Of a stretch of 64,000 nt of DNA, positions 21,540-55,539 are shown one piece after another; positions within the stretch are counted from its first letter, which is position 1; every line of letters begins with the position of its first letter. Source of the stretch: Gonapodya sp. JEL0774 (taxonomy: Eukaryota); NCBI GenBank assembly GCA_027604505.1, contig JADIIX010000105.1:1-64000 (forward strand), in the 5' to 3' direction. The notes below the pieces were generated by a model that was given only the letters and a program-made list of their open reading frames with translations, did no database searches and was not told the DNA's origin. A program made the position numbers and the translations under genes.

Positions 21540-22368
21540 ATGAGCAAGCTATTGAAGTCGGTCAGCTGGGTTGGCAAGATGAATAGACCCAGATTATGGC
21601 AAAATATTCAAAGGTTTGCTGCCAACAGTATCCCGAGGTGAACAAAGGCCAGGAAGCTGAAAGCCAATTTAAACAGTCGACCAACTGAACCCCTCGAGCC
21701 GGATGGGCGAGAAAGGTGGGGACGAAGAACTTGCACTGTCTTTTTGAATTTTGCAACGTACACAACTGCACCACTTGACCAGTGGATTCAACAGCACCGA
21801 TACCAAAGAAAGAAAGAAGTCGATGGCAGTACAAGGATTATATATATGCAGAAGCATATCGTACCGAAGATGCTCTCAAGATTCGAATTGCGTCCATCTC
21901 TGGCGGACCTGTGGATCACAATAGCTCCCATGTAATGTAATAAGCGGAAGGCGATGGCATTGCGTATGGTGACCAGAACCAAAAAATAGAAGTAGATCAA
22001 GGTGGTGACGTTGAGTGACATGCCTAGCAGTAGGTGGATCAGCGTGCAGAGTTTATGCTTCAAAACAAGTCGTGTTCCCACGCAAGAGTTGGTGAAGTCC
22101 GCTCACTACTATTCAAAGCTCAACAACCCAGCAAAAGCAAAATCAAACGTTGTAAAGCATTCTAGAATATTAAACGTCAAAGCTTGTTCGTGGGCAAAAA
22201 AAGCGGGAGACCCCAACCAATCCGAGAGTGTCCGCGACTGTGGCACATTACTGCCCCATTCACCCGTGGTCTCCACCAACTCTCAACGTATCTCAAAATG
22301 CAAGTTCAAGTCCCCACCGTTCGATTATGGCAACTCAAACCCCCGCTCGCCTTCTGAACCGGAAGCTC

Positions 22369-25300: not shown

Positions 25301-26101
25301 GGAAGTGGGAAGTGGGAACTGTGAAGTGGGCGGGGGCCCGGCGCTCGGGGGCTTGGCGTGGGGGCGGGGGGGGCGGGGGGGGGGGCGCCCCCAACAAAGG
25401 GGAAAGGTGAGGAGTGAGGACGGGGCGAGGGATACTTGCGCTATCCGTCCCGCAATTCGCCCACCAACCTCCACCTTCCGGTTCCCCCCCCCCCCTTCCA
25501 AACTCACACATCGTCACAGACCCACTGTATGATGAGCTGTTGGAGAGGGATGAGGACCGCGAGTTGGCCGATCTGGGGGTGTGTGGGGGGGTTGGGATGG
25601 GGTAGGGAGGGATGGGTGAGAGAGGGGTCACGGGGAGAGAAAAAAAAACAAGGAGGAGGAAGAAGGGGGGCGGTGTCGGGAGAGGTTGATGGGGACGGGA
25701 GCGGTGGACGGGAGGTTGGAGGAGGTGCGGTGTGGAGTCTCACGCGTGGTGGTGTGACCAGACGTGCAGGCCGAGTGGGTTGGGGACACGACACGACCAC
25801 AAGAACTCCAAGAACCGCAAGAACCGCAAGCAGGGCGGGATTGGGAGTGCGGATTGGGCATTTGACTCACCAGGAAGAGGCAGAGAGGGAGTCCGACGAC
25901 GTAGAGGAGCTTTGACCAAGCAGCAGAAGCGGAGTGAGAGATGTGAGAGTTTGAGGGGAAGTCTGAAGGGGAGTCTGAGGAGGGGGCGGAGTCTGGATTG
26001 GGGGGGTGGGCCGAGTTTGGAGTGGGAGCATGAGGGAGCAGCGGAGCCCGGGGGTCGTCTGGGTCATGGGACTGGGACTGGGACTGAGACTGGGACGGCA
26101 T
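22369..26101 (-). CDS. Major facilitator superfamily transporter (SLC46/PCFT-like)
   Basis: Multiple TM exons; LAHLSDTRWSRRRTPLL (motif A-like); GFVADVTSRGSERTVVLG; MLVGPAAGGII; RGLLSTLAGADQQARVFSALQVVE. The model spans an assembly gap. Confidence 0.82.
23478..23487. other. Assembly gap (10 N)
   Basis: Run of N inside the MFS gene, next to a poly-G tract. Confidence 1.
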
Positions 26102-27373: not shown

Positions 27374-27642
27374 TGTGACAGGATTTGGTGTGAAGAGCAC
27401 AAGAGAAACTCGACTGGGGACAGCAGCAGCAGAAAAACGCGATCTCGAATTCCGGATCGATTCCTCCTCCTCCCATCCCACACAGTGGAAGTAAAAGAGT
27501 TATAGTTGTATGTATATGTATATAGTAAGTAAGTGTTAGTTCGTTCCGCGCTGGACGTGTGCTGTGGTCCATATGTGCTGCGGTCGTCCCTGGTGTGCCA
27601 ACCCTCTGTGGCCACTCGGCTGCTTTCTTTCGTCACCGCACA
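27374..27642 (+). mobile_element. Possible degenerate LTR
   Basis: TG...CA-bounded with an AT-rich core. Short motifs (TCCGGAT..TTCCT; GTCCC(T)TGGTGT..CAA) are shared with 26158-26332. Confidence 0.3.
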
Positions 27643-27953
27643 CGCACGCAGACAATTCGAGGGTTGATCGCATCGAGAGTGTCTCCCAGCGAGCGGACCG
27701 ATCAGAAGGGGTGACTCCTCCTCCTCTCCCTGGCATCGATCGATCGCAGGTCCCCCGTGTCTCCCACGTGCCACTCTCGTCCTGGCACGGCCAAAGGCTC
27801 CACTCCACCCACTCCAGCACCTACTCTCCCGTCCACCGCCTTCCCCCCCATTCCCTCATTCCCTATCACCCCCATCCACCTACCCCATCCCCCAATTCCC
27901 CCATCCCCACCTTTCCCCATCCACCTTCCCCCTTCTCCCCATCCCCACCACCC

Positions 27954-30472
27954 ATGCCGTCTCCCACCTCTCTCCCCCATCCCGCCCCTTACAACCCCCT
28001 CCTCCCCTTCCTCTCGTCCCTCCCGCACGCCCTCTTCCTCGACGGCGGCCTCGCCACGGAGCTCGAGGCAATGGGGAAAGACCTCGCCGACACCTTGTGG
28101 TCCGCAAAGGTCCTGTTTGAAGACCCCAACGCCATCAAGCGTGTTCACATGGACTATTTCAAAGCGGGGGCTCAGGTCGCCACGACGGCCAGTTATCAGG
28201 GAAGGTGAGTGGAGGTGAGCGAAGCGAACCGGAGACCGGCCCGGTGCGACCGTCGGGCCCGAGCGGAGTGAGCGAAGCGAACGGAGTCAGCATCTGCGGG
28301 CTTTGCCCCACTGAAAGAGAGTTCAGCGGTCCGTAAGGGCCAATGACCCATATCACCGGTCCATGTAAAATTTGGCCGCCCTGAGAGACTTCCCCCCCTT
28401 GTCTTCCGCACACCCCTTTGACCTCTTCGCACCTCTTCCAACCTTTCACACCGTTCCCCCCGTCCCCCATCCGAACCCGTCCCCACCGGTCGCAACCCCG
28501 TCGGTCTCGTCTCCAGCGTCACGGGATTCATGAACCGAGGATTCTCAAGGACAGAGGCCGTCGAGTTGATCAGGCTGTGAGTATGTTATGTTTTCTTCTC
28601 CCTGCCGGTGGCCGGTTTCGACAGGGTGAGGGAGGGCGTGTAGGGCGTGGAGGGGGTCATGTGACATTGTGGCGGGTGGGGTGGGATTTGTCCAACGCTG
28701 TAGTTTTCCACGTCGGACGAGGTTTTCAAGAGGTCTTTCGAGAGGGTGAAAGATGGGTCGGGGGGGAGAAGAGTGCGGAGCACGGAGCACGGAGCACGGA
28801 GCACGGAGCACGGAGCACGGGTTTTGTACTGTTGTGGTAGAAGTGGATGTGGACGCGTGGTAGCGTGGGATTTGGTTGGGGCATTGGACGGGGGGTTGAC
28901 GTGGCGAGACTCCCGGACCGTCCTCGTTCTGGATTCCCTTCCATCCTAAAACTCGCACCTCCCACCCCCTGTTGTGGTTGGGAGTGGATGCGGACGCCTG
29001 GTAGCGTAGGATTGGGGCATTGGAGGGGGGTTGACGTGGCGAGACCCGGACAGTACTCGTTCTGGATTCCCTTCCATCCTAAAACTCGCCCTTTCCCACC
29101 CCGTCACCCCTCACCCTCCCTCTTCTTCCCGCCCCAGCTCCGCCGACCTCGCCTTCTCCGCCCGCGCTGCTCACCTCACCTCCCTCCCGCACCCCCCGCC
29201 CCTCCTTCCTCTCATCGCCCTCTCCTCAGGCCCCTACGGCGCCACCCTTCACGACGGGTCCGAGTACACGGGCGCCTACGTGCCCACCACAACACCGGAG
29301 ACGTTGGCGCAGTTCCATAGGGAGCGGTGCGAGGTGTTGGTGGGGGAGGCGAGGAGGTGGGATGGGGAGGAGGAGGGAGGGGGCATGGCAGGCGGAAAGG
29401 GCGCCTGGTTCGTGGCGGTGGAAACCGTGCCCGCCGTGGCCGAGGCCCGCGCGGCCCTGTCGGTGTTTGCCCCCTCCCCTGCCTCCTCCACCTCCACCCC
29501 GCCCCCGCTCTCTTCCATCCCCGTCCTCCTCTCCTTCTCCTACGCCCCCTCAGGCGCCACCACGAGCTACGGGGACACACCCGCCGCCGTGGCCCGCGCC
29601 GTCCGCGACGCACTCGACGACGGAGTCAATTTGGTCGCGGTCGGGGTGAATTGCTCCCCGCCCGGGGTCGTACGCAGGGTCCTGGCGGAGTTGAGGAAAG
29701 AGTTGGACCTGGTCGGCGTGCAGGTGGACGCACGGGGTGGCGGTGTGCACGGCGCCGAACCCGCACCAGCACCAGCACCCCGCTTCTCCATCTCCCTCGT
29801 GGCGTACCCCAACCGCGGCGAAGTGTACGACGTGGTTCACAACGCGTGGCACCAGGCGGCCGAGTCCACCGGAGCCGGCGGGGTAGAGGCGGGCTCGGAA
29901 CAGGGATTCGCAAAGACGGCCGTCGGGTGGTGGGAAGAGGGGTGTAGGGTTGTCGGAGGGTGGTGAGTAGGCTCGTGTGTGGCGGGGGGGAGGGGGCAGG
30001 CGGGACGGCGGGACGGCGGGTTGTGTGTGGTGGGGGTTGGGGTTGGGGTTGGGGGGTTTTCTCGGCCAACAGTCGTGTCGTACAATGCGTGCACCGCGTC
30101 GCGGTTATGGCCATGTGTGACGCCCGTGCTGCTCCCACCTAACCGCCCCGTTTCCCGTTCCCCCTTTCCCTGCATCCCCTTCTCACCACCCCCGCCACCA
30201 GCTGCAGAACCACTCCTGGCCACATCAGAGCTGTCCGGGCCGCGTTGGAGGAGCGGGCGGCGAGGGGATACGGGGTGCAGAGGGTGGGGGCGGGGGCGGG
30301 GGAGGGGGAGGTGTCCAAGGACAAGGCCAAGGGAAGCGGCGGGAACGAGGTCGGTGTGACACACGAGGTCAAGGGAAACGCAACGAGCGGCACAAACGGG
30401 ACGAACGGGACGCACGGCACGGGTGGCACGGGTGGCAAGGGTGTCACGTCCCCCTCCCCCGCCCCATCCTAG
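27954..30472 (+). CDS. Homocysteine S-methyltransferase (SAM4/MHT1/MmuM family)
   Basis: FLDGGLATELE..LWSA, TTASYQ, SGPYGATLHDGSEYTGAY, AVETVP, GVNC, YPNRGEVYD, VVGGC|CRTTPGHI. All three Zn-binding Cys are present. Confidence 0.95.
28776..28820 (+). repeat. Heptamer tandem repeat (CGGAGCA)x6.4 in intron 2 of the methyltransferase
   Basis: Directly visible in the sequence. Confidence 0.95.
28829..29101 (+). repeat. ~138-bp tandem duplication (2 copies) in the same intron
   Basis: CTGTTGTGGT..GTGGATG..GGGCATTGGA..GTTGACGTGGCGAGAC..CTCGTTCTGGATTCCCTTCCATCCTAAAACTCGC occurs twice. Confidence 0.9.
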
Positions 30473-31989: not shown

Positions 31990-33128
31990 GCCCGGGCGAA
32001 CTCTACTACGGTTCTTACCTCTCGCGATTGATGCGGCTGATGTCTCCACGACCGCGTACCTCCGTACGAATAGAAAAGGAAGATAGTATTGGAGCGCAAA
32101 ATGGGGTGGAGTTTATGAAACGTCCAGTTCTTGATCTTTGAAGGAACCATCCGAATGCGATTCCGGAAAAGCCAAGTGCCCACGCTATCTGCAAACTCAG
32201 GACATGTGCACATTATGAAAGTTCTGATTTCGATATACAGAATCGATTTGAGCAAGCTCCGCGACACCGCCGTTGAAAGGATGACCGAATGACAACAGAC
32301 TCGTTGTCCAACACGTAATCATCTTACATCGCGGACGATAGATGGTACTCAAAATATAGTGGAACCCATTACGGACGTACGCGTTCGTGCAGTACCATTG
32401 TAGATGTTGTTCGCGAGGATATATCTCCACGATACCTTTGTGCATTTTGGAAAAGCCCGCCAGCATGCTCAAACCGTCAATGTAACACACCGGGATTTGG
32501 TCCAACGGAGCCAATGGTACTCCGCGAGAAAGAGGGAAGGTAAGACTTAATGATGTTTGTTTTACTTTATAGCTTGAGACGAGCGTGAAAGATCGGTGGC
32601 AACTATTATTTAGTGTTCTCATTGCAAAAAGAATTATTGGTGAGAGTCCGCTCCACCAATGCTCAAGGAGCATTAGTAAGGGTTGCAAGTTAGTTGCAAG
32701 CTATCACCTTCCAAGCGTTGAATGGGACGACAGACGACATTGAAACTGCCAGGGGGGGACCATCCCACATATGTCAGTATTCCTGTTTACTAGCATGCGC
32801 TGGAAGACGCTTACTGTAATTGAACGGAACGTGCCGGCGTGTACTTGCTGCCATGTGGTCAGCTCTGGAATGCCCATCTGAACCAGTGAAAGGCACCAGG
32901 AGAATCAAATAATTAAGCTGCTGGTTTCGATAAAGATCCACTGGGCGTGTATGCATTGGTATAATAATTGTGAATTTATGTTATGGTGATTTGCAAGGGT
33001 TCCCTTATGAACCTGACCAGGCTGAGGACAAGATGAGTCGTGCTTTCTCGACTCAAAAATTCTGCATCTGCCGCCAATCTACCTATTCCACTGTTCCTGC
33101 CCAGAAAAAACAAACGCGAATTCATTTA

Positions 33129-36100
33129 ATGCTTTCGGCAACGGGCCCAATTGCCCCATTTACCGCGCAGAGTCCCGACGGCGACGGGGACGTCGAGATG
33201 GCAGAAGCAGACTCGGACGCCCGCGAAGTGACGGGAGCAGGGGACGCGGCCGGCGCCAGTTTGGGTAGCGCCGCTGACATGAAACCGCGTGCTAGTGTTG
33301 ACGGAGAGGCAAAGGAGCCCCGGCGTCGGTTCCTTGGCGGAACGGCGGGGGGGTCGTCTTCGTCGTCGTCGTTTGCGGGTAAACAGAGCCGTCGGCGCGC
33401 ACGGCCTCCACCATTGTCTCTGCCTGCGCAGAGACCACATTCTGTAGCCGTGTCGCACTCGTCGGACCAGCCATGGTTTGCCTCGGCGCCCGCTTCCGCG
33501 CAAACCGGTGCATCTGCGACCGCTACTACTGCCTTGTCTTCATGCTCCGCCTCAGCTCTACCTCCTCTTCCTCCCTTCTCCTTTAATTCTGTGTCAGGAG
33601 GAGCTTCTGCCCCACCTTCCTCGTCCGCATCTTCGCCCTCGGCCTCATCCCCTGCTCAGCCACAACCTCGCCGTATACTCAACCCCTCCCTGCACCGGAA
33701 CTCATGGCACGGTCAAGGCTCCGCCAAGCAGCACGCGTCTTCTTCGTCTTCTTCCGTGGCGTCACCTTCCTCTGCTGACGCCCACGCTCAAGCTCGTCCG
33801 CCATCCCTCGCGTCCTCCCTCTCGTCGCTCTCATCGTTTTCCGCACTCTCCGCACTCGCATCATCTGCAGCCTCATCTTTACTCAATGCTTCCTTTTCTT
33901 TTCGCCGTAACTCCCACGCCCACCAGCCGCCGCTAGCTCCACCGGCACTCCCGTCTCCTGGCCCTCCAGACTCCCCTTCGTCCCTCTCTGCGCCTTCACC
34001 TTACCCTCAGTCCTCTTCCGCTGCTCCTGATCCGCGTCGTCTGTCCGTGGGCTCTTTTGACTCGATCCTATACTCTCCCGTACCCCGTCCTGTGACTCAT
34101 CAGCATACCATCGGGTGTCCGGCACCTCCTTCTCCCACTGGCTCGCCTTTCCCTCTAACACTACCACCCTCAGTACTCTCTTCTCCCACCAACAACTTGA
34201 CCAACTCCTCAGCCCGGCCACCCCGTTCCCAACACCCGTCTCCCGCCTCCTATCCACCGCACGAACTGTTACAGAAGATCATTTCCTATCTTCCCCCTCC
34301 GGATTCAACTCCACTCTCCCTGATCTCTACAAACCCACCGGCACCGGGTCATCTTTTCTCCCTGACCTTGGTCAACTCTGCGTGGTACTATGCTGCCGCG
34401 GAGGCTCTTTGGCGTGACCCTCATTGGAGGGACATTGGCGCGTTCGAGAAGTGGGTGAGCGGTGTGGAGTGGGCAAGAAGAGGGGTGAAGGAAGGAAGAG
34501 CCATGACAGCGAGGACAGGCAGGGTGGTAGGGATGGTGCCGGGACTGGGAGCGATGGTGGAAGTCAATGGTGGGAAAGGAGGCTCATTGGGTCTCGTGCA
34601 TTCTGGAGAAGCTTTGGCATCCGTGCCGGCTGTAAACAAAAATCTTCCCATCGCCAAAGGCAAGGGAAAGCCGAAATCGAATGGACAATTTGGACTCGTT
34701 TCGTCTGTCTCGTCAAGTTACGTCACCCACAGCTCCATTCTGAGTGCAGTTGTCGAAGGAGAGCCTACTTCGGCGCCAGTCAGGCCAAGGAGCAGAGCGA
34801 GTGGAAGTGGGAGGGAGAAGGGGAAGGAAAAGGTCCAGGTGAGTTTGGTTCACGACTGAAGGAAATGGAGCATAGAAGGTCCCCTTGGGGTGACTGGAAG
34901 GTTAAGAAAACGTCGACGTTCCGTGAACCCTGGAGCGAAGTTTGCTTCAATCGAAGAAATCATTGTAAAGCTTTGCGTCACATCAATATCTCTGAACCCC
35001 TCCCTGCAGGCACCCTCCCCATATGGACGATCCGGCCCTGCCCTCCTGCGCCGTGTGTGCTTCCGGCGCACACCGCATCTCGTCGAGTATATCCGGGACG
35101 ATCATATGGCCAGACTTTCGGGAGCGTTCGGGGGAGTGCGAGAAGTGGACATGAGTGGTGAGTTGAGTTTCGGGGTTGTGTGTTACAGATAAACTTGGAG
35201 CTTTGTGCGGTGTAATGGCATGCGACTCACTAGTTTGATTGGTCGCTGTATAGGATGTAAGAACTTAACAGATGCGGGTGTGACGGAATTTGTCTCAGCG
35301 TGAGTGGGTCACAACAGTCATGAAGTATGGAGCAGTACCACTCAGAATGAATCCCCGACACATCACAGCACCCCCACCTACATCACCTCGCTTCAACTTT
35401 CCCATATTCCACACCTTTCTGACCCACTCTGCCTCGCCTTGTCCCTGTTCCTGGCACCTCACCGCCGCTTGGAGCGCCTCAGCCTGCGCTCGTGCGGCCA
35501 TGTATCCGACGCCGGCGTCGCCTCTATTTCATCAAGTTTAGGTCCAACTCTGCGCTATTTGGACGTTTCTGGATGCCGGCGGGTGACGGACCATGGGCTC
35601 GCAGCAGTGGTGAGGGGCGTATGCGCTGCGGGAAGGTTGAGAGAGTTGAGGGCGAGTGGACTGGCCAGAGTCACGAGGGCGGCATTGAAGGGTGCCTGCG
35701 AGAGACTATCGATCGGGTGTCCGGAGCTGATGTCGCTTGAGTTTTCTATACCCGCTCCTCCCGCAACGCAGAGGGACCACACGTACTACTCGATGCCTGT
35801 GCGTGCCATGAGCAACATTGCAGAGATTAGTTTGAGGGAGTGCGGTGGAGGTGTGACGGATGCGGTTGTCAAAACGCTTGCGGATGCGTGTGGAGATGGG
35901 ATGAAGGGAATCGCACTCAGGGGTGCGACGGCCCTCACGACAGCAGGGGTGGAATCCCTTTTGTCAGCGTGCCCCGGGTTGTGCAAAATCGACTTCCGTG
36001 GCTGTCGTCGGGTGGACGATCTGACAATTCTGGCGCTCGCCCTGTCGAGTTGCGCCGAAAATCTTGTCAGCCTCGATCTGGGGTCCACGCTTATTACCGA

Positions 36101-36746
36101 CGGGTCTCTATACGCACTCGAAGTGGGCGTTGGCCCTCGTCCGGGCTCGGATCCAGTGCGGGTGGCCAAGGCCGCGAGCTGCGCGTTCCCGAAACTCCAG
36201 AAGCTCGGTCTGTCAGATTTGGACCGTGTGAGCTTTGAAGGTATTTTTGCTGTCGCCCGACATCTCGCGCCCGTGATATGGGCACCAGATTGGTCCGTCA
36301 GCCGCGGAGGCGTTCTTGAAGAGGTGGATGTGTCGGGTATCCCGGACTTGGATCCTCGCCGTGCTGCCGCAATCTACGCACAAGGTGTACCATTACCAGT
36401 ACAGCCACTTGCTGGGTGGCCGCCGAATCCGGCGCCTGTAAATGTGGGACAAGTGCCAGGTGGGCAGGTTGGAGCTGGTGGCGGGAACTGGGCAGTGGCG
36501 AATGCGATGTTGCCGATCGCCCAATTTGTACAGAACGCTGTCGGTGCCGGTACCGTGACCGCAAATGTTGCGGGATTGGTGCAAAGGCCCTCCAGGCCGA
36601 CCGAAGAGTGGATCGAGGGCTTGTTGGATGTCCCTGAGAGGGTTGGGTCGGCGAGGGGGGAGTACAGATGGTGGTGTGCATTAAAGGGAGAGAAATGGAA
36701 AAGGGTTGTACAAGAGGCGTGGGCCAGGAAGGTGCGACGGGTGTGA
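33129..36746 (+). CDS. F-box / leucine-rich repeat (RNI-like, cysteine-containing LRR) protein
   Basis: Ser/Pro-rich N-terminus; F-box PPHELLQKIISYL..LTLVNSAWYYAAAEALWRDP; LRR-CC repeats LERLSLRSCGHVSDAGV, LRYLDVSGCRRVTDHGL, IDFRGCRRVDDLTI. Confidence 0.85.
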
Positions 36747-43136: not shown

Positions 43137-44267
43137 GAACGGGCCTGCCTGACATCTTTGGACAGTGAAACAGAACACTTGCCAATTCAACGCGTTTGAC
43201 TATTTTGCATGCTCTCACCAAGTGTTTCTTCTCTCTCTCTCGTTTCCTTCAATCCCTTGGTCCACACAAGCACAGACAGTACTCCAATGAAGCAGAATCA
43301 GCACATCTACATCCAGTTGGAGTTATCGGTTTGGGCGAGTGTCAAAGCGTCGTTCACGGAATACCCGAATGATAAATTCAAGATGGATTCGACAGCCACA
43401 CGCAGTTCAAAGAACAAATGGCTTGCGGTTTTCCAGTGAAAGCGCATGAGCTGTCGTTAATGGAATTCTGCTCCGACCGTTTTTGTTTTGGCTTGAGAGA
43501 TGTACATACTCACGCATGAGTACATAATACACAGCGCTGATGTGTCTTTGAAAGTACCATCCACGTGGCGTCGCAGCCTTCCAAATAAAGCAAGTTTTCA
43601 AATGTCTAGTAAATCAGATGAAGATACATGGAGATGCTCCAATTTGAGATTGTTCTCGTGGATACTATTGCTATATGAAGATGAGAACGCCGGCAGCCGT
43701 CACGCCTATCAAACGGAAAGAATTATCTGACCGCTATGTATCAAATTTGTGTTACAGCGAGATGCTATTGGCTGTCACATTACTTTTATAATTTCTGACA
43801 CCGACGGCAGATGGTGTGCGGGCGAGTGCAAATTCACAGGCGACTTTTATTTGAGATATCACCTCATCCGGAGAGGGGAAAACAAGCGCATAATTTGGTG
43901 CAAGAATGGGCGTCGTGGGCTGTGTTTTCTTGGTCCGTGTTTTGAGGACCAAGGGTGGCTGTGTGGCACCGAGTGGATTCCGTCGAGGCGGGGACTCCAC
44001 CTAAGCAATACAGAAAAGCGGTGCATGAGCGTAAAGAAAGCAGCAGCAAACTTGTCAGTGAATTTGTCGCCGCGATATCTGCGGGATTGTTGTTGAAACT
44101 AATTCTGTTTTCCAAATTTGTTCATAGCGGTGTTTGGCTCCTCAGAACCGTTGATCCCTGATTATCGCTGTATGCAGTCCTCCCACTTTTCTCCGACTTC
44201 GCAAACATCAAGTAACACTCCAAACCGGCGTGGAGCAAACAGGAGCGAGTTGTCTCTGGACTCCACG

Positions 44268-46186
44268 ATGCCTTCTGTGACGCAACCGCTTCTCCAGGGC
44301 GCGGAAAATGCCGTGAGTTTGAAATGCTCACCATCCCAGGGGATCCACCCATCCTGGCCTTGTTCTGAGTCGAATTGTTTCGCGAAGCAGCCCCCAGCAG
44401 TTCCCCCACCACTACCATCGGCAGACTTTCTTTCCCGCCATTATTTTGGCCGCCCTTCCACCGCCTCTGATGCCCGCGCATCAACGTCAATTGACCTTGC
44501 CGAGCCATCTTACGATTCTTCGGATGACCTAGCGTCTAATGCATCCCTTCTACGTCCAGCAGCGCGCCTAGCAGCGGCTGACGGGATGATTGAGCTCCCA
44601 GTCCAGAGAGCGCTTCCTTCCCGTAGGTGGCTCTTGGTGGCGGGTGCCCTCAGCGCACTACTCCTTATCGGAGCTGGTGTAGCGGGAGTGGTAGTGTGGA
44701 AAAAGAAGGAAAACGTCGCACCATCCTCCGCGATGGTGCTCAACTCGGCATCTGGCGTAGGCAACGGGTTTGGGAGCAACAGTACTCTCAACGCGACACT
44801 CGCACCGGCGAACACTACCTCAACAGCGCTCCTCAAACCATCCACCACCGCATTGCGATCTACTGCTCAAATATCTACCACTGCCGTGACTACGACTGTC
44901 AACACCACCGTTCCTGCTACATCGACACCAACGACCACGACGATCATACAGACAACAACAGAGGTCGTGCGAACGACCACACGTGCCAGACCGAGCTCCA
45001 CCACGGCACCATCCCCTCCTCCCCCATCGTTTGCTCCCAACGCCCCTTTCGGTGAGTTTCGCACAACTGCGACAACGTCAATGCGACCAACTCAGAGCTT
45101 TCCAACCCCCGTCTGCAGGCGTGTTCAACTCATGCAACCAACCTGGTGTCGTCGCAATCACGTTTGATGGTAGGTCGTTTTGGCGATCCAAATTTTTCTC
45201 AAGGTGACAATCAGCTCAACAATAATTACATGCGACTTAGATGGTCCCTTTGCATACACACCCGCTTTGCTCGATTTGCTGGACAGGGAAGGCGTGAAAG
45301 CCACATTTTTTGTGGTACGTCTTCATTTCAAAGTGTTGTGCAGCCACCCCAATCCGGTGTTCGTCACTAACGCCCGTCTCCACGTCTCTCAGAACGGAAG
45401 AAATCAAGGCAATCTTAATGACCCTTACTACGCTGGCATGATGCAGCGGGCCGCGGGAGCGGGACACTGCATAGGATCTCAGTACGTACCCATCTTGGAC
45501 TTACACGGCACTTTGAGTTCTCCCTCACACTCTCCCACCGTCCACGCGTCTACCTACAGCACGTGGAGTCACCGCGACCTGACGACACTGAACGACGATG
45601 TCCTTCGTAGCGAAATCAGCCAAATCGAGGATTCTTTCGTCCAGCTCCTCGGAAAAAAACCTTCCTTCCTCAGACCACCATATGTGAGATCGACCGCTTT
45701 GAAGTAATCCGACTGGGCAGCTCTTTAGCAAACTCTTTTTCCTACAGGGCTCCTATAATCAGCATACACTCGACGTGATTGCAAGTTTTGGTTACTCGTC
45801 TGTAGTTATCTGGAATTACGACACAGATGGTGAGTGGAGAAGAGAGGCGTCACACATTGCGAACTCACTCCATGCATACACGTGACAATTAGATTGGGCC
45901 CATCCCCAAGATGTTGGGGCAAGCTTGGGTGTTTACCAGAACGCACTCAACAACCAGAGCCCCCAGAGGTATGTCGTCTCAAACATCCAATCATGTCCCT
46001 CGTCTCAACACGTGCATCCCCTCCACCCCGTACCTGCACCACAGTGGGAACATTTTGATACTCGACCACGATGTAGTTCCAACCGTGACCACCCTGATCC
46101 AGCAGGCCATTGACGCCGTTCAGAGCAGAGGTGGATGGCGGTTTGTCTCCATGGACGAGTGTCTCGGCCGACCGTGCTACCGATAG
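44268..46186 (+). CDS. CE4 chitin/polysaccharide deacetylase with N-terminal TM anchor and Thr-rich stalk
   Basis: AITFD|DGP, KATFFV|NG, IGSH|TWSH, RPPY|G, WNYDTD|DW, LDHD, FVSMDECLG. Confidence 0.93.
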
Positions 46187-46665: not shown

Positions 46666-49600
46666 CTAAGTATTAGTAGTGTTTGACGTTGTGCTTGTCA
46701 AAACTGCAGTAGTGGGCTTGCTTGGCCTGTGGGAAAGGCAACATGTTCTCATCACAGTTGAGCACCAAAGGCATTTTTTGAAAACATACACCGTTGTTAC
46801 CACTGCACGAGTAGTCGTCACATCGGTATCAGTGGAAGTTACCACAGGAGTAACCTCAGTCGTTGCGATCGCGGTAGACGTGACAGCTCTGTAAACCGAC
46901 ACGATTCTTAAACGCACAGATCACGCAGATTTACAGCAAGCGCAAACACCTACTGTGTCGTAGAGAAAGACGTGGTGGCAGCAGGAGCCGGAATCACACT
47001 TTCCCCGGTGCAGCAGCGTTGGAAGTAGCCCGGACCTTTGTTCACACTGATGCCGTATTTCGTGACACTCTTGAGCCAGTCCGTATTATTAAAGAAAGTG
47101 TCGAGTGTGAACCCAGTGGTCGTCTGGTGCACCCACGATGGGCGCTGTGATACATCGGCCCCAGGGCCGCTGTTGGTGCCAACGACTTCCCAGTAGTTGG
47201 AGTCATTGAAAGCGGTGGAACTCATGGGAATGAATCCAATTGGTACGACTGAAGACGGCATGTACACGTTCTGGAATGTTGCAGCAGATAGAGTACCCCA
47301 AGAGCGCGCCAAATACACGTTTGTGTTGGGGTCCGCTGAATGTTGTCGACAATATTCCTTTGAATGAGTCCCCAAGCGAAGCAAGACTTCATTATTTACT
47401 TACCGGAAATCGAGCTGTCGTAAATCCAGAACCACGAGTTTGCTCGAGTCGCCGGGCTGGGTGTCGCTCCATTCGCAACAACATAGCCATTTTGGATCTT
47501 GTCTGTTCCATTCATGCGTTTTGCGCGGTTGCCGACATGAAACTGTGCGTTCTGGAAGATTGCACGACCATAACCCCACACGAAGTCCACTGGATGGAAA
47601 TTGAAAGATGACGTCTGTGAGTGAGTGCTGAACGTAGAACGATTCACATTTGATGAAACAGTCCTCACCATCTCCGAAAACGTAGATCTGGCGCAGAAAT
47701 TTTGTTCACATGATGATTGTCAAGATATGGATATCAAGAACAAGACAGTTCGGGTGGACTCACGTTGTTGAACCAATGATTCGTTCCGTAGTAGCTAAGC
47801 AACGTGTCTTGCCACGATATAAAATGGCAATTCTCGATGTAAGAATTGTCACCTCTGAAGTAGAAAGCAGGAGCTACAGTGAGGTGGGAATGGAAATATA
47901 TCAATCGGGCGAAGAATGACACAGCGACTCATTGCATCGATGCGTGCCTTGGACTGCAGATGCATTCAGAGGCGCAGTGTTCTCAAACCGGATATCGAAG
48001 GCCTTGAAGTAATTTCCTTTCACCCGGACAGTTGCGGATTCGAAACTTGCGCTGGATGCTCCTGGATTGAGAGCTTGCCAGAGGGGGTTGTTCAAGTAAT
48101 ACGAAATCGTGGTTTTGTCCCATCCATCCCCCACAAGAGTGACGTGATCTTTAAAAATGGTAATCTGAGAGTCGCTGTAGTTGCCCGCTCTAATATAAAC
48201 CACGACTTCCTGCGTGTTGGAAGCAGGGATACTGTCGATGGCCGGTTGAATGCTCCTAAAGTTGCCCGAGCCGTCCTGCGCAACAACAATAGCAGAAGAG
48301 GGAACGTTTTGAGGAAGTGTTACAGGGCCTGTCGCAGGAATAGACGTTGTTATCCCGGCAACAGTAGTTGGAAAAATTTCAGCTACTGTTGTAGTTGATG
48401 TGGTGCTGTATCGACGGGTTAATTAAACACTTCACTATGGGGACGCAAACTTGTGAAAGTAGTCACGTACATCACATTGGTGGTCGCTTCCGCAAAAGCC
48501 GTGGTGCTGTTTCGAAAGAGCACTTCACTGCACAACTCCGACGCCGCAACCTCGTGAAAGTCGAAACTCACATCCCATTCGCAATCAATGTTGTCGAGGA
48601 ACTTGTAGTCGCATCTGTTGTTGAAGAGTCAGCGCTTGAGGAAGCAGCAGTCGTACTAGGGTTTGCCGGCCTGAGGGAACGTGGAATCAGATTCGCTGAT
48701 GATTCTTTAGGGCACCAAGATTGTGAGCTCACTGTGTGGTTATTGTTGTTGTTGTGGGGGGCGCTGCTACCACCGGTTGGTTAGTGCAGCAGCGTTGGAA
48801 GTAACCGACACCCTGATTGACACTAATGCCGTACTTGGTCACGCTCTTCAGCCAAGCCGTGTTGTTGAAGAACGTATCAAGTGTAAAGCCGGTCATGGTT
48901 TGATGAACATAGGAAAGACGATGCGAGACGTCAGCTCCTGGGCCAGAGTTCGTACCGACTACCTCGAAGTAGTTTGTGTCATTCGGGGCACCAGAGCTCA
49001 TGGGAATGAACCCAGCAGGAACCACAGAAGCTGGCATATAGAGTCCTTGGAACGTTGCAGCTGATAGAGTACCCCACGGACGACCCAGGTACACATTAAC
49101 GTTGTCATCCGCTGCCAGCACGGCGTCATAAGCTCAACAAAAAGTCCAAACAAACACAAAATCTCTTCCGCACCTGAGATGGAGCTGTTATAGAGCCAGA
49201 ACCAAGAGTTTGCTTTGTCCGCCGACTTTGGATCTGCTCCGTTTGCCACCACGTAGCCGTTTCTTGTCTTGTCAGTTCCGTTCATACGTTTCGCCCGGTT
49301 GCCAACATGGAATTGAGAGTTCTGGAACATGGCCCGACCGTAGCCCCAAACGAAGTCAACTATGTTTGAAGTAGAGAGTCTTCTAATCAACGGAGAGGTC
49401 TGCTCATAAACGGAAGCGACACTCACCATCTCCGAAGACATAAACCTGCGAGACGTGGGACAAAGCAAACATGAGTAGCCAAAATAAAAGTTTGCAGGTT
49501 CTTGTCAAATAAACCTACGTTGTTAAACAATTGGTTGGTTCCGGTGTAACTGAGAAGGGTGTCCTGCCAAGAAACGAAGTAGCAATTTTCAATGTAGGAG

Positions 49601-52600
49601 TTGTCTCCTCTCATGTAGAATGCAGGAGCTGTCGAAGAAAAATTAGCGTGAGTTGTTTGCGCACCGGAAGATTACTTTGAGCAATCGGACGCCCCAAGAC
49701 TTGGATGATACCTTGGGCTGAGGACGTATTGACAGGTCCCGTGTTCTCGAACCGAATGTCAAAAGCCTTGAAATAATTGGCTTTCACCCTCACTGTAGCG
49801 GACTCGAAACTTGCTCCCCCCTGGCCAGGGTTCAGTGCAGACCAAAGCGCTAATGGCAGTATAGATATAGACGATTTACGACTTTGAAAGAAACAAGGGC
49901 CAACAACACAACTTACGGTTATTTAGAAAGTAGGATATGGTGGTTTTGTCCCATCCATCTCCGACAAGGGTAACGAAATCTTTCGTGATGAAGATCTGGG
50001 ATGTGCTATAGTTACCACTTTTAATGTAAACCACAACTTCTTGCGTGTTTGGACTTGGAATACTGTCGATCGCTGGTTGAATGCTCGTGAAGTCACCGGT
50101 ACCATCTTGAGAAACTACGATTGCATTAGCGGGAAGATTCAGAGGACGGGGTAACGATGGCGCGATAGTGATTGTGGCGGTAGTAGTAGCGGCGGCCCTG
50201 TCGAGGCAAAAGGCTTACTCAGCTATCTCGGACCACGGCATTTGTGGATACGGAGAATACGCACGTGGCGGTAGAGGTCACGATAGTCGTAACGAATGTG
50301 GTGACATCCACTGAAGTAGTGGGCGTGGGTAAACTGGTACAAACGCGGTGATACAGAGTGAGAAAGCAGTTGAACAATGTCGCATAATGACAACTCACTC
50401 TGAAGTTGACGACATCCCAGGGAGCAAGCAAACATCTGGAAGTGGGGCGTAGCCGGTGCAGTTAGGAGTTCCTTGGATGAAGACATTTGTGAAAGAGAAG
50501 CCACTGCATGCTCCGGGGTAGCACAGTATGTAGACCGAATTGTTCGCGCCCGGAGCCAAAGTACCCTGAACGTTGGTGTACGAGACATTCGAAATGGGAA
50601 TACCACCAGACGGGTTGCCTGTCGGGCCTCCATTCAAATAGTCTTGCTGGATGACGATACCGAATCCCGTAATGCCAATCAAGGTGATGTCCTTGTAAAT
50701 TACGTTCGACACGTAGCCTCCCGTAGCTCCGACCACGGTCTTGATCCGCAAGCCGTTGAGGTGGGCCTCAACCGTGCAATTGGCAATGTACACCTGAGTG
50801 AAGGAAACAGTAATGAAACGCCAAGCCCGAAGACAAGACCGCCACAGACCCCGGGGTGAATGAAGTTCCTCACATTAGTAACGACCTGACCATCCTTGAT
50901 GGATCCGATCGAGACACCGTGACCACCATAGCAGTAGTTGTTGATGAACGTGACGTTATTTCCCCTGTTGATGGCAAGGCAGTCATCTTGGTTTCGGACA
51001 AAGTTGTTTCGGATTGTGATGTTGTCCGCCGAAACATCTGGTTGCATAAATTTGGCGAGGTAAGTGAAACTCGCCAGTGCCAACGCGGACATAAGACGTG
51101 AAACATTGTGCTTACCAAAAGCGTCAGTGTTGTGACCAAGTTCCAATCCATCTGGTCCGAGAGCGAAGCCGTCTGAGTTGTCAACGGTGATTCCCTCAAA
51201 GGTCGTACCGGAGCCTCCAACGCTGAAAATGTGTACAGGCGAGTTGTGAATGGTGATTCCCCGGACAATCGAGTTCCCCGTGAGAGTCGAACGGAACATT
51301 TTTGGTTTTGGGACGCCACCGTTTGCGCCAATACCTGTTCCAAAGGTTTTAGATTGCAGACTTGCTGATGACACAGAGTAAGGAACGTCTCACCATCCCA
51401 GTAAAGCGGGCCATTTCCTTCAAATGTCCCTCCAGTACCGTCAAAGAGTACATCGGAGCCGGCGATGGTGAAGAGATAATTGGTGCTGTTGAGCGTCTCA
51501 GACTTTGCAAATGTCACTGTGCCACGGAGCTTGACAACAGTGCCAGGCCTCAGTGTGGCCATGCTTATCTTGGTCTCCGCAGGCACTGTGAAGGGGCCCT
51601 GGATCGTGATGTCAGTGTACGGCATGCACGCGGCAAATCCATTCCACGCAGTAACCGTGCACTGAAGAGAGCATTCCGCATAAGCCTTATCAAAAAATAA
51701 AGATATTGGGAGATTTCAAACCCGACTCACTGGTCCTGAAACCGTTGTAGTGGCCGTTTTGGTCGTTTTTGTTGTCGTGGGAGTGAAGGACTGGATGGTG
51801 GTGGTGGCGCTGATCGGTCAAGATATTGAGATCAAACAGCGACTCAGAGTTTGGGAGACCAAGCAAAAAGACGTGTCGCAATTTGTACTTTGCTATGAAT
51901 ACCACTCACTCAGTCGAAGTAGCTGTTGCACTCGTTGTAATGGCAGTCGTGCTACAAACAAAAGTCCGGGGTATAAGTGCCCACCCCAAGTACCAGACAG
52001 TCTCACAACACTCACGATTCCACAGTGGTTGTTGTTGCCACCGTGCTCGTTGTCGAGATCTCGGTGGTGGTCACTGGAAGTGCAGGCAGCAAGCAAACAT
52101 CGGGAAGTGGGGCGTAGCCGGTGCAGTTAGGAGTTCCTTGGATGAAGACATTTGTGAAAGAGAAGCCACTGCATGCTCCGGGGTAGCACAGTATGTAGAC
52201 CGAATTGTTCGCGCCCGGAGCCAAAGTACCCTGAACGTTGGTGTACGAGACATTCGAAATGGGAATACCACCAGACGGGTTGCCTGTCGGGCCTCCATTC
52301 AAATAGTCTTGCTGGATGACGATACCGAATCCCGTAATGCCAATCAAGGTGATGTCCTTGTAAATTACGTTCGACACGTAGCCTCCCGTAGCTCCGACCA
52401 CGGTCTTGATCCGCAAGCCGTTGAGGTGGGCCTCAACCGTACAGTTCCCAACGTAGACGTTGGAAACAATTTGATTGGTGTTCACCGAACCGATCGAAAT
52501 CCCGTGACCGCCGTAACAATAGTTGTTGACGAAGGTGATGTTGTTGCCGCTGTTGATGGCGATACAGTCATCTTGGTTTCGAATATAGCTGTTTCGAATA

Positions 52601-55539
52601 ACAATGTCATTAGCTCCTACGTCTACATGTGAAATTCAGTTTTGGTCGACGGGAAGGTCAGGAGCTTTGGAACCGAAACGCTATAAACCAGTCTCTTACC
52701 AAATGCGTCAGTGTTGTGACCTAATTCCAGTCCATTAGAGCCAATAATAAAACCATCAGAATTGTCAATTTTTATATCCTCGAAGACCGTTCCAGCACCA
52801 GCAACACTGAAAACGTGAACTGGCGAGTTGTGAATGGTGATGCCGCGAACGACTGAGTTGCCAGTGAGCTTTGCGCGGAAAAACTTGGGCTTTGGTACAC
52901 CGCCATTAGCACCCAGACCTATAAAAGGAGTGAGCTTGTGCTGATTGTGTTGTTGATTCCGAAATGCGAAATCTTACCGTCCCAGTACAGGGGACCATTT
53001 CCCTCAAAAGTTCCTTCTGATCCATCAAATACAATGTTTGAACCAGCAATCGTGAAGAGAAAGTTGCCGTTGCCAAGATTATTTGACTTATTGAAGGTTA
53101 TAGTCCCTTGGAGTTTGACTTTCGTATCCGGTTTCAGAGTGGCCATGCTGATCGTGGTTTCGGAGGGGACGGTGAATGGACCTTGAATTGTAATGTCAGT
53201 GTATGGCATGCAACCGGCAAAGCCATTATACGCGGTAACAGTGCACTGTTGGCACAAAGAATGTCTCTCCGATTATGGGCGGGAAAGGAGCAGAAAACAC
53301 TTTCAAAACTCACTGGTCCCGAAGCCGTTGTCGAAGTAACTTTTGTTTTTGTGGTTGTGGGAGTCAGGGTCGTCCTGTCAACCAAACGTTTGTCAACTTG
53401 CGCTGAATTTTAAGTGCTGAGATCGAACTCACGATTCCGGGGCCACTGTGGTGGTTGTGACGTCGGTCGTCGTCAGCGACAACGACCACGACGTGGTAGT
53501 TTCGCTGCAAATAAAGGCGGGAGAAACTTAAGTCTCGGAACCCAACAGTGTGACTAGGGAGAGGGAGCAAACTACGCTTACATTGCAGTGGTAGATGTTA
53601 CGCTGCTCGTCGAAGGCGTTTCTGTTGTCAAGCTGCTCGTTGACGGCGTTACTGTTGTCAAGGTGCTTGTCGATGGCGTCACTGTTGTTAAGCTGCTGGT
53701 CTTCGGTAGCGCGGTTGTCAAGCTACTTGTTGAGGGAGTTGTGGTCCGGCGGCTGGATGCGAAAATTGTTGCGGAAATACGTAAATGTCAGCATGATGGG
53801 AGCCATTGTAAAGCAGCATCCATCTACACAAGAACTCCTTGAGCTAAACGACGCTACTTACTTCACAACGTTTGTACTGGACTTAGTTACCGTCGCTGTT
53901 GCCGTTCTGAAAGATGACGAATCCAGACACAGGGCTTTGTAAAAGCACGCGGGCAGAACCTATACCAAATCCTCAGTTCTTACTTTGTCGTACTTTTCCT
54001 CGTTTTGGTCACAGTTCGGGTGGTCGTCGATGACCTGGTGGTCCCCAATTCGAAAATTCGAAATTAGGATGGAACATAGTACTCTGAGTCTCATACTCAC
54101 TTCAGAGTGCTAGTTCTGGTTTTGGTAGCAGAATGCGTTGACGTGACAGTCTTGGTGGTGGTGGACTTGGTGGAAGTGGTGCGAGTTGTCGAGGTGCCAC
54201 CAATCCCTGTACAACGGTGAAAGTGAGCCACTGTGATTTCACGAAAAACGCTGAGCATCATCCCACCATAAGGATACCAAGAAACGCAGCTCCAAGCCTG
54301 TATTCATCAACCAATACAGAGAGTTCAGTTCAGTTGGTAAGAGCAACTTTGGCGTGGTCAGTAGAGATCACCACTTACCCCCCAATCGGCGAAGTCCTGC
54401 TGCGTGAGCTTTTTACCAGCAACATATGCTGCATGAATCGAATCACAAGTGCGCACGGTGGTCGTGGTTGCTTTGGGTGGGAGCTTTGCTGTGGTCGCGC
54501 CAATACCTGGGGGACAGATGCAATTCAACGAGTTTGTTCACGGACACGAAAAATTTGTAAGAGGGGGGAAAACTTACCTTGCGGAAACCAAATAGAGCAA
54601 GACCAGGCCTTCAGAAAATCACAAGCCAAGCCACAAAGTTTGTACCAATCCCGACCAAATTTTTTTTTCCCCAACAGGTGAACTACTCACCGCCCAGTCA
54701 CTATAATCCTGAGCGGTCATCTTTTTGCCAGATTTGTATCCTGCGTATATACTGTCACATGTGCGTACAGTCGTACTGGTTATGCGGAAATTGTACAACA
54801 GTTGCAAATGGAGCAAGCAACCATCGAGAAGAGAAAATTTTCAGAGAACAACTCTCCAAAATTATTCTCAATATCCAAATGATTGACTCACGTAGATGTT
54901 TTGGAGGACGTTCTACTGGAGTGATAATGGAGAGTGTCAGAGTAACGGATCAGCGACAGATTTAGTGTAGCTTGACTCCCAAACCGGGTAGCTTGACTCC
55001 CAGAACTCACGTGGTAGATCGTCTGGTTCTCAGTGAAGATGAATCGTCGGGAAATTTGGGAGTATGTTTTGGACGCATAGGCGACAAGAATGAACAATAA
55101 GGGGTCACAATCACGCACGTGATAGCTTCTCATGGTATGCGGAATGTAGCGTTCACTCACGTGGTGGTGCTCGCGCGTTTACGGAGTTGCTCACTGAGCC
55201 ATGGCCACCAAGAGCTCGCGTCACTTTTTCATTACAATGGCAATGGTGATTGCGAAAAGACGCAAGTAGAAATTTGCCGATGTGAAATGTTCCGCCGGAT
55301 CAAGTCAGGCGGGGCGGAGGAGGAAGGATCGGCGGGTTTCATTGGGAGACGTTGTGGGTATCAGGCACAAGAACCGCTGAAAACATTAACCACTCAATGA
55401 TGATTCCTCACCCTTCTTGGCGTTTCTGCAAATCGGAAGCTGGGGGAGGTGCATCATCGTCTTGGGCATTAACCAAGGCCGTTGAGAGGACACAGAGGAG
55501 CGTGATGCAGAGGAAGAGCCGATTACTTCCCCTACGCAT
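46666..55539 (-). CDS. Secreted multi-domain pectinase: 2x Trp/Cys module, 2x GH28 endopolygalacturonase, 2x CE8 pectin methylesterase
   Basis: Signal MRRGSNRLFLCITLLCVLSTALVNA. Both GH28 domains have HNTDAFD, NQDDC, GGHG and LRIKT. Both CE8 domains have DGxGxFxSIQPAID, WQDTLL, VDFVWG and YLGRPW/YLARSW. Linker exons splice in phase with GT-AG introns. Confidence 0.88.
53594..53745 (-). repeat. 30-bp (10-aa) coding tandem repeat, ~5 copies, TPSTSSLTTV-like
   Basis: TTPSTSSLTT/ALPKTSSLTT/VTPSTSTLTT/VTPSTSSLTT/ETPSTSSVTS in the pectinase linker. Confidence 0.85.

What the first reader, a model, noticed from the sequence alone, without database searches (positions are those of the whole stretch)
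46666..55539. Single-polypeptide pectin disassembly line: GH28-GH28-CE8-CE8 fusion
Seen: what looks like four pectinase genes splices into one reading frame. The junctions checked base by base keep phase with canonical GT-AG introns: N-terminal linker to GH28-1 (~52085-53245), to GH28-2 (~50420-51661), to CE8-1 (~48785-50135), to CE8-2 (~47005-48300). There is one signal peptide (ATG 55539), two KR sites (LQKR, LRKR) and roughly 38 introns by my count, and all four domains keep their catalytic motifs. Established: CE8 demethylesterifies homogalacturonan, producing the substrate of GH28, and fungal GH28 and CE8 enzymes are normally separate single-domain proteins. Inference: a covalently linked, substrate-channelling pectinase on O-glycosylated Thr-rich tethers, useful in water where free enzymes diffuse apart.
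Basis: partly seen in the sequence, partly recalled or inferred. Interest (0 to 1): 0.92.

Follow-up and report, generated by a model that had tools for sequence, protein, structure and literature searches.

The report
Four-domain chytrid pectinase with uncharted module
In a water-living fungus, four pectin-digesting enzyme domains lie in one reading frame and are likely made as a single secreted protein; such fusions are known elsewhere, but this one also carries two copies of an uncatalogued small module, shared by many unrelated sugar-degrading enzymes of these fungi, that probably helps tether them.

Summary
A 39-exon, 38-intron model (55539 to 46666, minus strand) gives one open 1956-aa frame: signal peptide, Thr-rich stalk, GH28, GH28, CE8, CE8, with catalytic motifs in all four domains. 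A public gene model (Gonapodya sp. JEL0774) has the same inter-domain junctions. No internal domain has its own signal peptide, and the three inter-domain linkers have no KR/RR sites. The G. prolifera orthologues of the GH28 and CE8 are consecutive accessions on one scaffold. No transcript evidence was available.

The novelty claim is overstated: GH28+CE8 chains are already reported from Penicillium oxalicum and Bifidobacterium. 'Channelling' is better read as proximity synergy.

(1) Two copies of a ~37-aa Cys2/Trp-rich, predicted helical module with no Pfam or PDB match; it recurs in 11 other proteins, all from Gonapodya or two other chytrids, including GH5, GH7, GH16, CE4 and a six-CE8 chain. 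(2) All 18 linker introns are phase 2 and none of the other 20 are, so domains are shuffle-ready cassettes. (3) A 338-bp identical tract is shared by the two GH28s.

Verdict: new variant of a known kind; the module is the lead worth testing.

The parts
46666..55539 (-). Whole gene, 39 exons / 38 introns, 1956-aa open frame
   Evidence: public model P0001 agrees at 1788 positions
55412..55539 (-). Exon 1: predicted signal peptide (about aa 1-25) and start of propeptide with LQKR
   Evidence: hydropathy peak 3.16 at aa 8; cleavage site judged by eye, no dedicated predictor run; absent from the public model
54892..55193 (-). Micro-exons 2-4 (LRKR site and start of Thr-rich stalk)
   Evidence: sequence reading only; all flanking introns are phase 2, so skipping them keeps frame
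54505..54765 (-). Module repeat 1 (aa 70-105), Cys2/Trp-rich, split by introns 5 and 6
54205..54453 (-). Module repeat 2 (aa 123-158), same intron positions (introns 7, 8)
53314..54204 (-). Thr/Ser-rich N-terminal stalk (exons 9-14), includes a 30-nt tandem repeat at 53596-53745
52093..53245 (-). GH28-1, endo-polygalacturonase-like domain (aa 327-665)
   Evidence: Pfam PF00295; endo-PG structures at E 1e-70 to 1e-53; motifs
51662..52092 (-). Linker L1, 66 aa, 45% Thr, no dibasic site (introns 17-19)
50428..51661 (-). GH28-2 (aa 732-1070), 83% identical to GH28-1, has one extra intron (50873-50794)
50140..50427 (-). Linker L2 (GH28-2 to CE8-1), 52 aa, introns 23-24, no signal peptide or dibasic site
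48786..50139 (-). CE8-1, pectin methylesterase-like domain (aa 1123-1456)
   Evidence: Pfam PF01095; motifs
48309..48785 (-). Linker L3, 95 aa, introns 30-32
47010..48308 (-). CE8-2 (aa 1552-1885), 81% identical to CE8-1, one GC-AG intron (47947-47874)
46666..47009 (-). Thr-rich C-terminal tail, 71 aa, and stop
50438..50775 (.). 338-bp tract identical to 52103-52440 (3' part of GH28-2)
52103..52440 (.). 338-bp tract identical to 50438-50775 (3' part of GH28-1)

Best explanation
The locus holds two GH28 and two CE8 domains in one spliceable reading frame behind one predicted signal peptide, and is likely expressed as a single secreted ~200-kDa pectinase whose CE8 domains would strip methyl esters from homogalacturonan for the tethered GH28 domains to cut, while two N-terminal modules probably hold it on a surface. 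Shown: the frame, the motifs, the linkers, the absence of internal signal peptides and dibasic sites, and the module's presence on unrelated carbohydrate-active enzymes. From established knowledge: CE8 makes the GH28 substrate; KR sites in a propeptide are Kex2-type; Thr-rich linkers of fungal enzymes are O-glycosylated. Inferred: full-length transcript; proximity synergy rather than channelling; the module as a carbohydrate-binding or anchoring unit (about 0.55, against 0.2 for a dockerin-like protein tag); assembly of the gene by shuffling and tandem duplication of cassettes bounded by phase-2 introns, followed by recent gene conversion between the two GH28 3' ends.
For: Open 1956-aa frame. 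Same junctions in public model P0001. Linker exons Thr/Ser-rich only in the model frame, 16 of 16. Rival-start scan: 0 in-frame ATG paths within 450 nt upstream of GH28-1, GH28-2 and CE8-2; 5 for CE8-1, best hydropathy 1.9 against 3.1 for the true N-terminus. Only 256-421 nt between each in-donor stop and the next domain. G. prolifera KXS19005 (GH28) and KXS19004 (CE8 fragment) are consecutive accessions, both on a 758,273-bp contig, and are the closest relatives of the window's domains (trees, support 100/100 and 99/94). The N-terminus of KXS19005 matches an off-frame reading of linker exon 19 (score 38; null 99.9th percentile 34, maximum 40 of 3000), so it too seems to sit behind a linker. 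The same organism has a public model with 3 modules and 6 CE8 domains (P0253). Introns: 18 of 18 in linkers are phase 2, 0 of 20 elsewhere. Module: 10 hits among 1.84 billion representatives, 8 Gonapodya and 2 other chytrids, plus G. prolifera GH5 KXS18945.
Against: No transcript or protein evidence for the full-length product. The public model is weak support by itself: 3 other Gonapodya models seen here look like merges of unrelated neighbours (P0013 GH28+kinase, P0255 modules+histidine kinase, P0256 WD40+CE4). G. prolifera is annotated as separate, partial GH28 and CE8 proteins, and its DNA could not be read. In the trees the two window copies group together to the exclusion of the G. prolifera copy (92/81 and 83/58, unstarred), so the 2+2 form may be confined to this lineage. 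The off-frame match did not exceed the null maximum. The phase statistic is inflated because duplicated introns are not independent. The module's function has no direct evidence.
Confidence: 0.78

Rival explanations
1. One gene, but the main products are shorter: retention or intronic polyadenylation at phase-2 GTGAG introns, or skipping of whole in-phase cassettes, yields module-GH28, module-GH28-GH28 or other subsets.
For: Every domain lies in a cassette bounded by phase-2 introns, and the donors after the first three domains carry an in-frame TGA. The public model already skips exons 10-11 and stops in intron 37.
Against: The TGA is a by-product of the GTGAG donor in phase 2. The linker exons downstream of each domain keep a Thr/Ser-rich frame, as expected if they are translated.
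Confidence: 0.12
2. A polyprotein: the chain is secreted whole or in part and then cut in the linkers into free GH28 and CE8 enzymes, so the fusion serves co-expression and fixed 1:1 stoichiometry rather than tethering.
For: Long low-complexity linkers (52-95 aa); a six-CE8 chain in the same organism is hard to explain by synergy between different activities.
Against: No KR, RR, KK or RK in L1, L2 or L3; the two KR sites lie only in the propeptide. Thr-rich linkers are usually protected by O-glycans (established knowledge).
Confidence: 0.12
3. Four separate tandem genes that a gene caller and the reader merged.
For: Merged models do occur in these genomes (P0013, P0255, P0256). G. prolifera is annotated with the GH28 and CE8 apart. 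Five ATG paths reach CE8-1 in frame.
Against: No signal peptide for three of four domains, gaps of only 256-421 nt filled with Thr-rich in-frame exons and top-ranked splice sites. The merged models cited join unrelated functions, unlike here.
Confidence: 0.03
4. The 2+2 order is an assembly join through the 338-bp identical repeat; the real genome has a GH28-GH28 gene and a GH28-CE8-CE8 gene at different places.
For: A perfect 338-bp repeat amid copies otherwise about 50% different at third positions; no reads could be laid.
Against: With only two copies the path is unique; a misjoin needs a third copy elsewhere, which could not be checked as no genome is held. The GH28-to-CE8 and CE8-to-CE8 junctions lie in unique sequence, so the fusion itself survives this rival. 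Gene conversion explains the tract, which begins 18 nt after an intron that only GH28-2 has.
Confidence: 0.05

Closest known systems
Bifunctional pectinase of Penicillium oxalicum SX6 (Tu et al. 2014, doi 10.1007/s00253-014-5533-x)
   Same: [quoted passage not shown]
   Different: One domain of each, and CE8 before GH28 as I recall (recalled, not checked). Here two of each with GH28 first, from Gonapodya-specific GH28 and CE8 clades, so an independent origin is likely.
Bacterial GH28+CE8 proteins (Bifidobacterium asteroides PME, PMC11322527; hits P0136, P0143, P0171)
   Same: GH28 and CE8 in one secreted chain (passages); GH28 before CE8 in the three hits.
   Different: Single domains, short linkers, about 30% identity to the window CE8, far away in the tree.
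Fungal GH28 endo-polygalacturonases (PDB 6kve, 1czf, 1hg8) and CE8 pectinesterases (1xg2, 1gq8)
   Same: Domain families and catalytic motifs.
   Different: These are single-domain. The window CE8s are closer to a Neocallimastix CE8-CBM1 protein (42%, 100/99) than to anything else listed outside Gonapodya.
Fungal non-catalytic dockerin (CBM10) of Neocallimastigomycota cellulosomes
   Same: Small modules attached to many unrelated carbohydrate-active enzymes in a zoosporic fungus, with reduced diffusion in liquid proposed as the benefit (PMC6690862 section 9 read). Their ~40-aa size, Cys/Trp content and tandem copies are recalled.
   Different: No Pfam match to CBM_10 for any of 12 aligned members; the module is predicted helical; no scaffoldin partner is known or was found.
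Fungal CBM1 / chytrid CBM5 and CBM18 on O-glycosylated linkers
   Same: Small aromatic-rich modules joined by a Thr-rich linker to catalytic domains (CBM5 passages, PMC12115818; CBM1 on P0122 and P0254; CBM18 recalled).
   Different: No sequence match to these families; P0254 carries both CBM1 and three copies of the new module, so the two are distinct.

Membership tests
GH28 endo-polygalacturonase | PF00295 above the curated cut-off | tested here: met
   P0001 480 bits in total; separate exons of both copies hit
GH28 endo-polygalacturonase | NTD, DD, GHG, RIK and conserved Tyr | tested here: met
   all five in both copies; alignment to 6kve
GH28 endo-polygalacturonase | Endo-hydrolysis of polygalacturonate | not testable with these tools
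   inferred from best solved relatives, all endo-PG or PG
CE8 pectin methylesterase | PF01095 above cut-off; QAxA, QDT, DF, RxW motifs | tested here: met
   292 bits, 2 stretches; motifs in both copies
CE8 pectin methylesterase | Methanol release from pectin; processive or random mode | not testable with these tools
   needs an assay
Bifunctional PME-PG pectinase | CE8 and GH28 in one open frame with one signal peptide | tested here: met
Bifunctional PME-PG pectinase | One transcript and one mature polypeptide with both activities | not testable with these tools
   no reads could be laid on the locus
Kex2-cleaved polyprotein | Dibasic sites between domains | tested here: not met
   none in L1, L2, L3
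Fungal dockerin (CBM10) | Sequence match to the CBM_10 profile | tested here: not met
   0 of 12 aligned members matched it at E up to 10
Fungal dockerin (CBM10) | Shared fold | tested here: inconclusive
   no Foldseek match at E 0.001; best VIA Z 3.0, rmsd 4.0, 64 aligned
Fungal dockerin (CBM10) | Tandem copies on many unrelated secreted carbohydrate-active enzymes | tested here: met
   1-4 copies on GH5, GH7, GH16, CE4, CE8 and GH28 proteins
Fungal dockerin (CBM10) | Binds a scaffoldin | not testable with these tools
   no candidate partner identified
Carbohydrate-binding module (general) | Discrete folded non-catalytic unit with conserved aromatics, linked to a catalytic domain | tested here: met
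   conserved Trp, Cys and Asp columns; model pLDDT 83 for a G. prolifera double repeat
Carbohydrate-binding module (general) | Demonstrated glycan binding | not testable with these tools
   needs pull-down or glycan array

The most novel reading that the evidence does not exclude
The 37-aa module is a dockerin-like or cell-wall-anchoring tag that aerobic zoosporic fungi evolved independently of the rumen-fungal cellulosome. Gonapodya uses it, together with phase-2 exon cassettes that string catalytic domains into chains of four to six, to keep a whole polysaccharide-degrading arsenal on its own surface in water.
Probability: 0.2. Interest if true: 0.85.

Novelty: new variant of a known kind. 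Interest (0 to 1): 0.58.

Why it matters
The fusion alone adds a 2+2 variant, probably of independent origin, to known PME-PG enzymes, and offers a natural construct for measuring tethering synergy on methylated pectin. The module matters more. A small predicted-helical unit without Pfam or PDB match, repeated on six families of carbohydrate-active enzymes in Gonapodya and present in two other chytrids, is either a new carbohydrate-binding module family or a second fungal docking system outside the rumen. Either result bears on how early aquatic fungi kept secreted enzymes near the cell, and it can be tested with a 40-80-residue construct. The strict phase-2 rule for linker introns gives a concrete mechanism for building multi-domain enzymes in a fungus.

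Tried and rejected
RNA runs: none was listed for the 9-kb stretch; this is no evidence either way, and no reads were laid. No whole genome is held, so other copies of the repeat and of the module in this assembly were seen only through public protein models. Metagenome scan with the module: 1 of 397 pattern matches passed, L001, a gene-dense prokaryote-like contig matching only 20 residues of the module; rejected as chance. ESM Atlas: no feature hits for either module query, and structure rows all had TM below 0.5. PDB by sequence: 1 hit at E 0.73, rejected. Fold searches: no match at E 0.001, best Z 3.0 among 48,161 chains; neither shows that the fold is new. Pfam on the module: best E 0.018, scattered, rejected. 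Literature: 'GH28-CE8 / CE8-GH28 / GH28-GH28' 0 papers; domain-phrase search 0; strain name 3 unrelated papers, listing only; Gonapodya+dockerin 11 papers, 8 listed, and the two I opened do not describe the module in the parts read; searches gave nothing on this protein (listings only, apart from the papers named elsewhere). The library lacks most subscription journals, and the supplements of PMC4494064 could not be read; they may list these Gonapodya pectinases. Earlier scan findings: none in 3 look-ups. Internal ATG starts and Kex2 processing between domains were considered and rejected. No complex prediction was run, as no partner for the module is known. The catalytic domains were not folded.
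Full report
Observation. I rebuilt the gene by hand from the minus strand. Thirty-eight introns (37 GT-AG, one GC-AG at 47947-47874) join 39 exons from ATG 55539 to TAG 46666 into 5871 nt and 1956 aa with one stop. The order is predicted signal peptide, propeptide with LQKR and LRKR, Thr-rich stalk, GH28-1 (aa 327-665), 66-aa linker, GH28-2 (732-1070), 52-aa linker, CE8-1 (1123-1456), 95-aa linker, CE8-2 (1552-1885) and a 71-aa tail. Pfam confirms the families, the best solved relatives are fungal endo-polygalacturonases and plant pectinesterases, and all catalytic motifs are present.

Is it one gene? A search with exon 17 returned a public model, P0001 (HDU93_000413, Gonapodya sp. JEL0774, 1814 aa), identical over the query and the only one of 120 listed hits (of 202) with both Pfam families. 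It agrees with my model at 1788 positions and all inter-domain junctions. That alone is weak, because three other Gonapodya models seen here appear to merge unrelated neighbours (P0013, P0255, P0256). The sequence evidence is stronger. All 16 linker exons are richest in Thr+Ser in the model frame. The linker splice sites rank near the top under a matrix trained on homology-anchored introns. No ATG within 450 nt reaches GH28-1, GH28-2 or CE8-2 in frame, and the five paths to CE8-1 are weakly hydrophobic (1.9 or less, against 3.1). The three 'in-intron stops' are the TGA within phase-2 GTGAG donors. No transcript data were available, so the full-length mRNA remains inferred.

Second species. The closest relatives of the window's GH28 and CE8 domains are G. 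prolifera KXS19005 and KXS19004 (support 100/100 and 99/94; trees of 20 and 21 rows chosen from the hits, the GH28 tree on the unconverted N-terminal part only). They are consecutive accessions, both on a 758,273-bp contig. KXS19005 has no evident signal peptide, and its N-terminus matches an off-frame reading of linker exon 19 (score 38; null 99.9th percentile 34, maximum 40). I infer that a linker-GH28-CE8 locus is shared and mis-annotated there. Its copy number is unknown: KXS19005 resembles GH28-2 at 30 and GH28-1 at 15 of 57 differing sites, yet the tree groups the two window copies together (92/81).

How it was built. All 18 introns within linkers are phase 2, and none of the other 20 is (Fisher p 3e-11, inflated by duplication). 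Each catalytic domain, and the module pair, therefore sits in a symmetric cassette that can be duplicated or skipped in frame; exon-phase symmetry is a recognised signature of shuffling (PMC3632108, start of abstract only). The two GH28s (83% identical) and two CE8s (81%) differ at about half of third positions, so the duplications are old, except for 338 bp that are identical between the GH28 3' ends (50438-50775 and 52103-52440). Recent gene conversion is the likely cause. A misjoin through this repeat cannot be excluded, but the GH28-CE8 and CE8-CE8 junctions lie outside it.

The N-terminal region holds two copies of a ~37-aa unit (aa 70-105 and 123-158) with two Cys, three Trp and conserved Asp. 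A word search found it in a G. prolifera GH5, KXS18945, four times (1 hit among 17 candidates). A profile search of 1.84 billion representatives found 10 proteins: 8 from Gonapodya, 1 Cladochytrium tenue and 1 Zopfochytrium polystomum. They carry GH16+CBM1, GH7, CE4 (three proteins), six CE8 domains (P0253, same organism), or no carbohydrate-active domain (four proteins, one of them a likely merge with a histidine kinase). Copies run from 1 to 4 per protein, and in 5 of the 11 other proteins the first copy directly follows a KR or RR site. No Pfam family fits, nor any PDB sequence. AlphaFold2 on a G. prolifera double repeat with a 12-row alignment gives two helices per unit, mean pLDDT 83, pTM 0.52, with no clear structural match.

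Mechanism. Most likely the chain is secreted, trimmed at the propeptide KR sites and O-glycosylated on its linkers (established knowledge, not tested). CE8 would de-esterify homogalacturonan and the tethered GH28 would cut the cleared stretches. This is proximity synergy: open-cleft enzymes on flexible tethers cannot channel in the strict sense. The linkers lack dibasic sites, which argues against a Kex2 polyprotein. The module rides on enzymes for pectin, cellulose, beta-glucan and probably chitin, so a pectin-specific role is unlikely. I put about 0.55 on a carbohydrate-binding or wall-anchoring module, 0.2 on a dockerin-like protein tag, and the rest on other roles. Proteins made only of repeats fit a lectin-like unit better than a dockerin.

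Comparison with what is known. A PME+PG two-domain enzyme from Penicillium oxalicum SX6 is published (title in reference lists; paper not held), Bifidobacterium has a GH28+CE8 chain (passages of PMC11322527), and 3 of 120 listed CE8 hits (of 152) carry both families. Gonapodya is known to be rich in pectinases and to grow on pectin (PMC4494064 abstract and passages; PMC6690862 passages and section 9); the passages read mention no fused forms. I found no 2+2 chain and no description of the module, within a library that lacks most subscription journals. The CE8 search covered only proteins under 997 aa and the GH28 search 315-2000 aa, by shared words, so other long fusions can have been missed.

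Verdict. The feature is real; the fusion is a new variant of a known kind and deserves less than 0.92. The uncatalogued module and the phase-2 cassette rule lift it above routine. Interest 0.58.

Noticed in passing
P0253 (KAJ3338682.1, same organism, another contig): Public model of 2398 aa with three modules and six CE8 domains. Domains 1-3 keep WQDT and DFxWG (58-70% identical to the window CE8s); domains 4-6 lack the QDT aspartate and may be non-catalytic pectin binders. Residues about 160-330 look like an off-frame Thr-rich linker.
   Followed up: partly
window 44103-45707 (+): Convergent neighbour: a hydrophobic segment, a Thr-rich stalk and a polysaccharide deacetylase (PF01522) region, probably one membrane-anchored CE4 gene.
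   Followed up: no
window 50794-50873: Intron present in GH28-2 and absent from GH28-1; the identical 338-bp tract begins 18 nt after it.
   Followed up: partly
window 47874-47947: GC-AG intron in CE8-2 whose counterpart in CE8-1 (49711-49629) is GT-AG.
   Followed up: yes
P0259, P0260: Cladochytrium tenue and Zopfochytrium polystomum proteins with 3-4 divergent copies of the module and no Pfam domain; possible lectin-like or adhesive proteins.
   Followed up: no
P0013, P0255, P0256: Public Gonapodya models that seem to merge unrelated neighbouring genes (GH28+kinase, modules+histidine kinase, WD40+CE4).
   Followed up: no
window 8842-9447, 20808-21539, 27540-29966, 32934-36746 (+): Ordinary genes by Pfam: enoyl-CoA hydratase, GNAT acetyltransferase, homocysteine S-methyltransferase, F-box/LRR (7 of 28 frames scanned had a hit).
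   Followed up: no
window 22001-26000 and 28001-30000: G+C rises to 0.60-0.66 against about 0.49 around the pectinase gene; a 10-N gap lies at 23478-23487.
   Followed up: no
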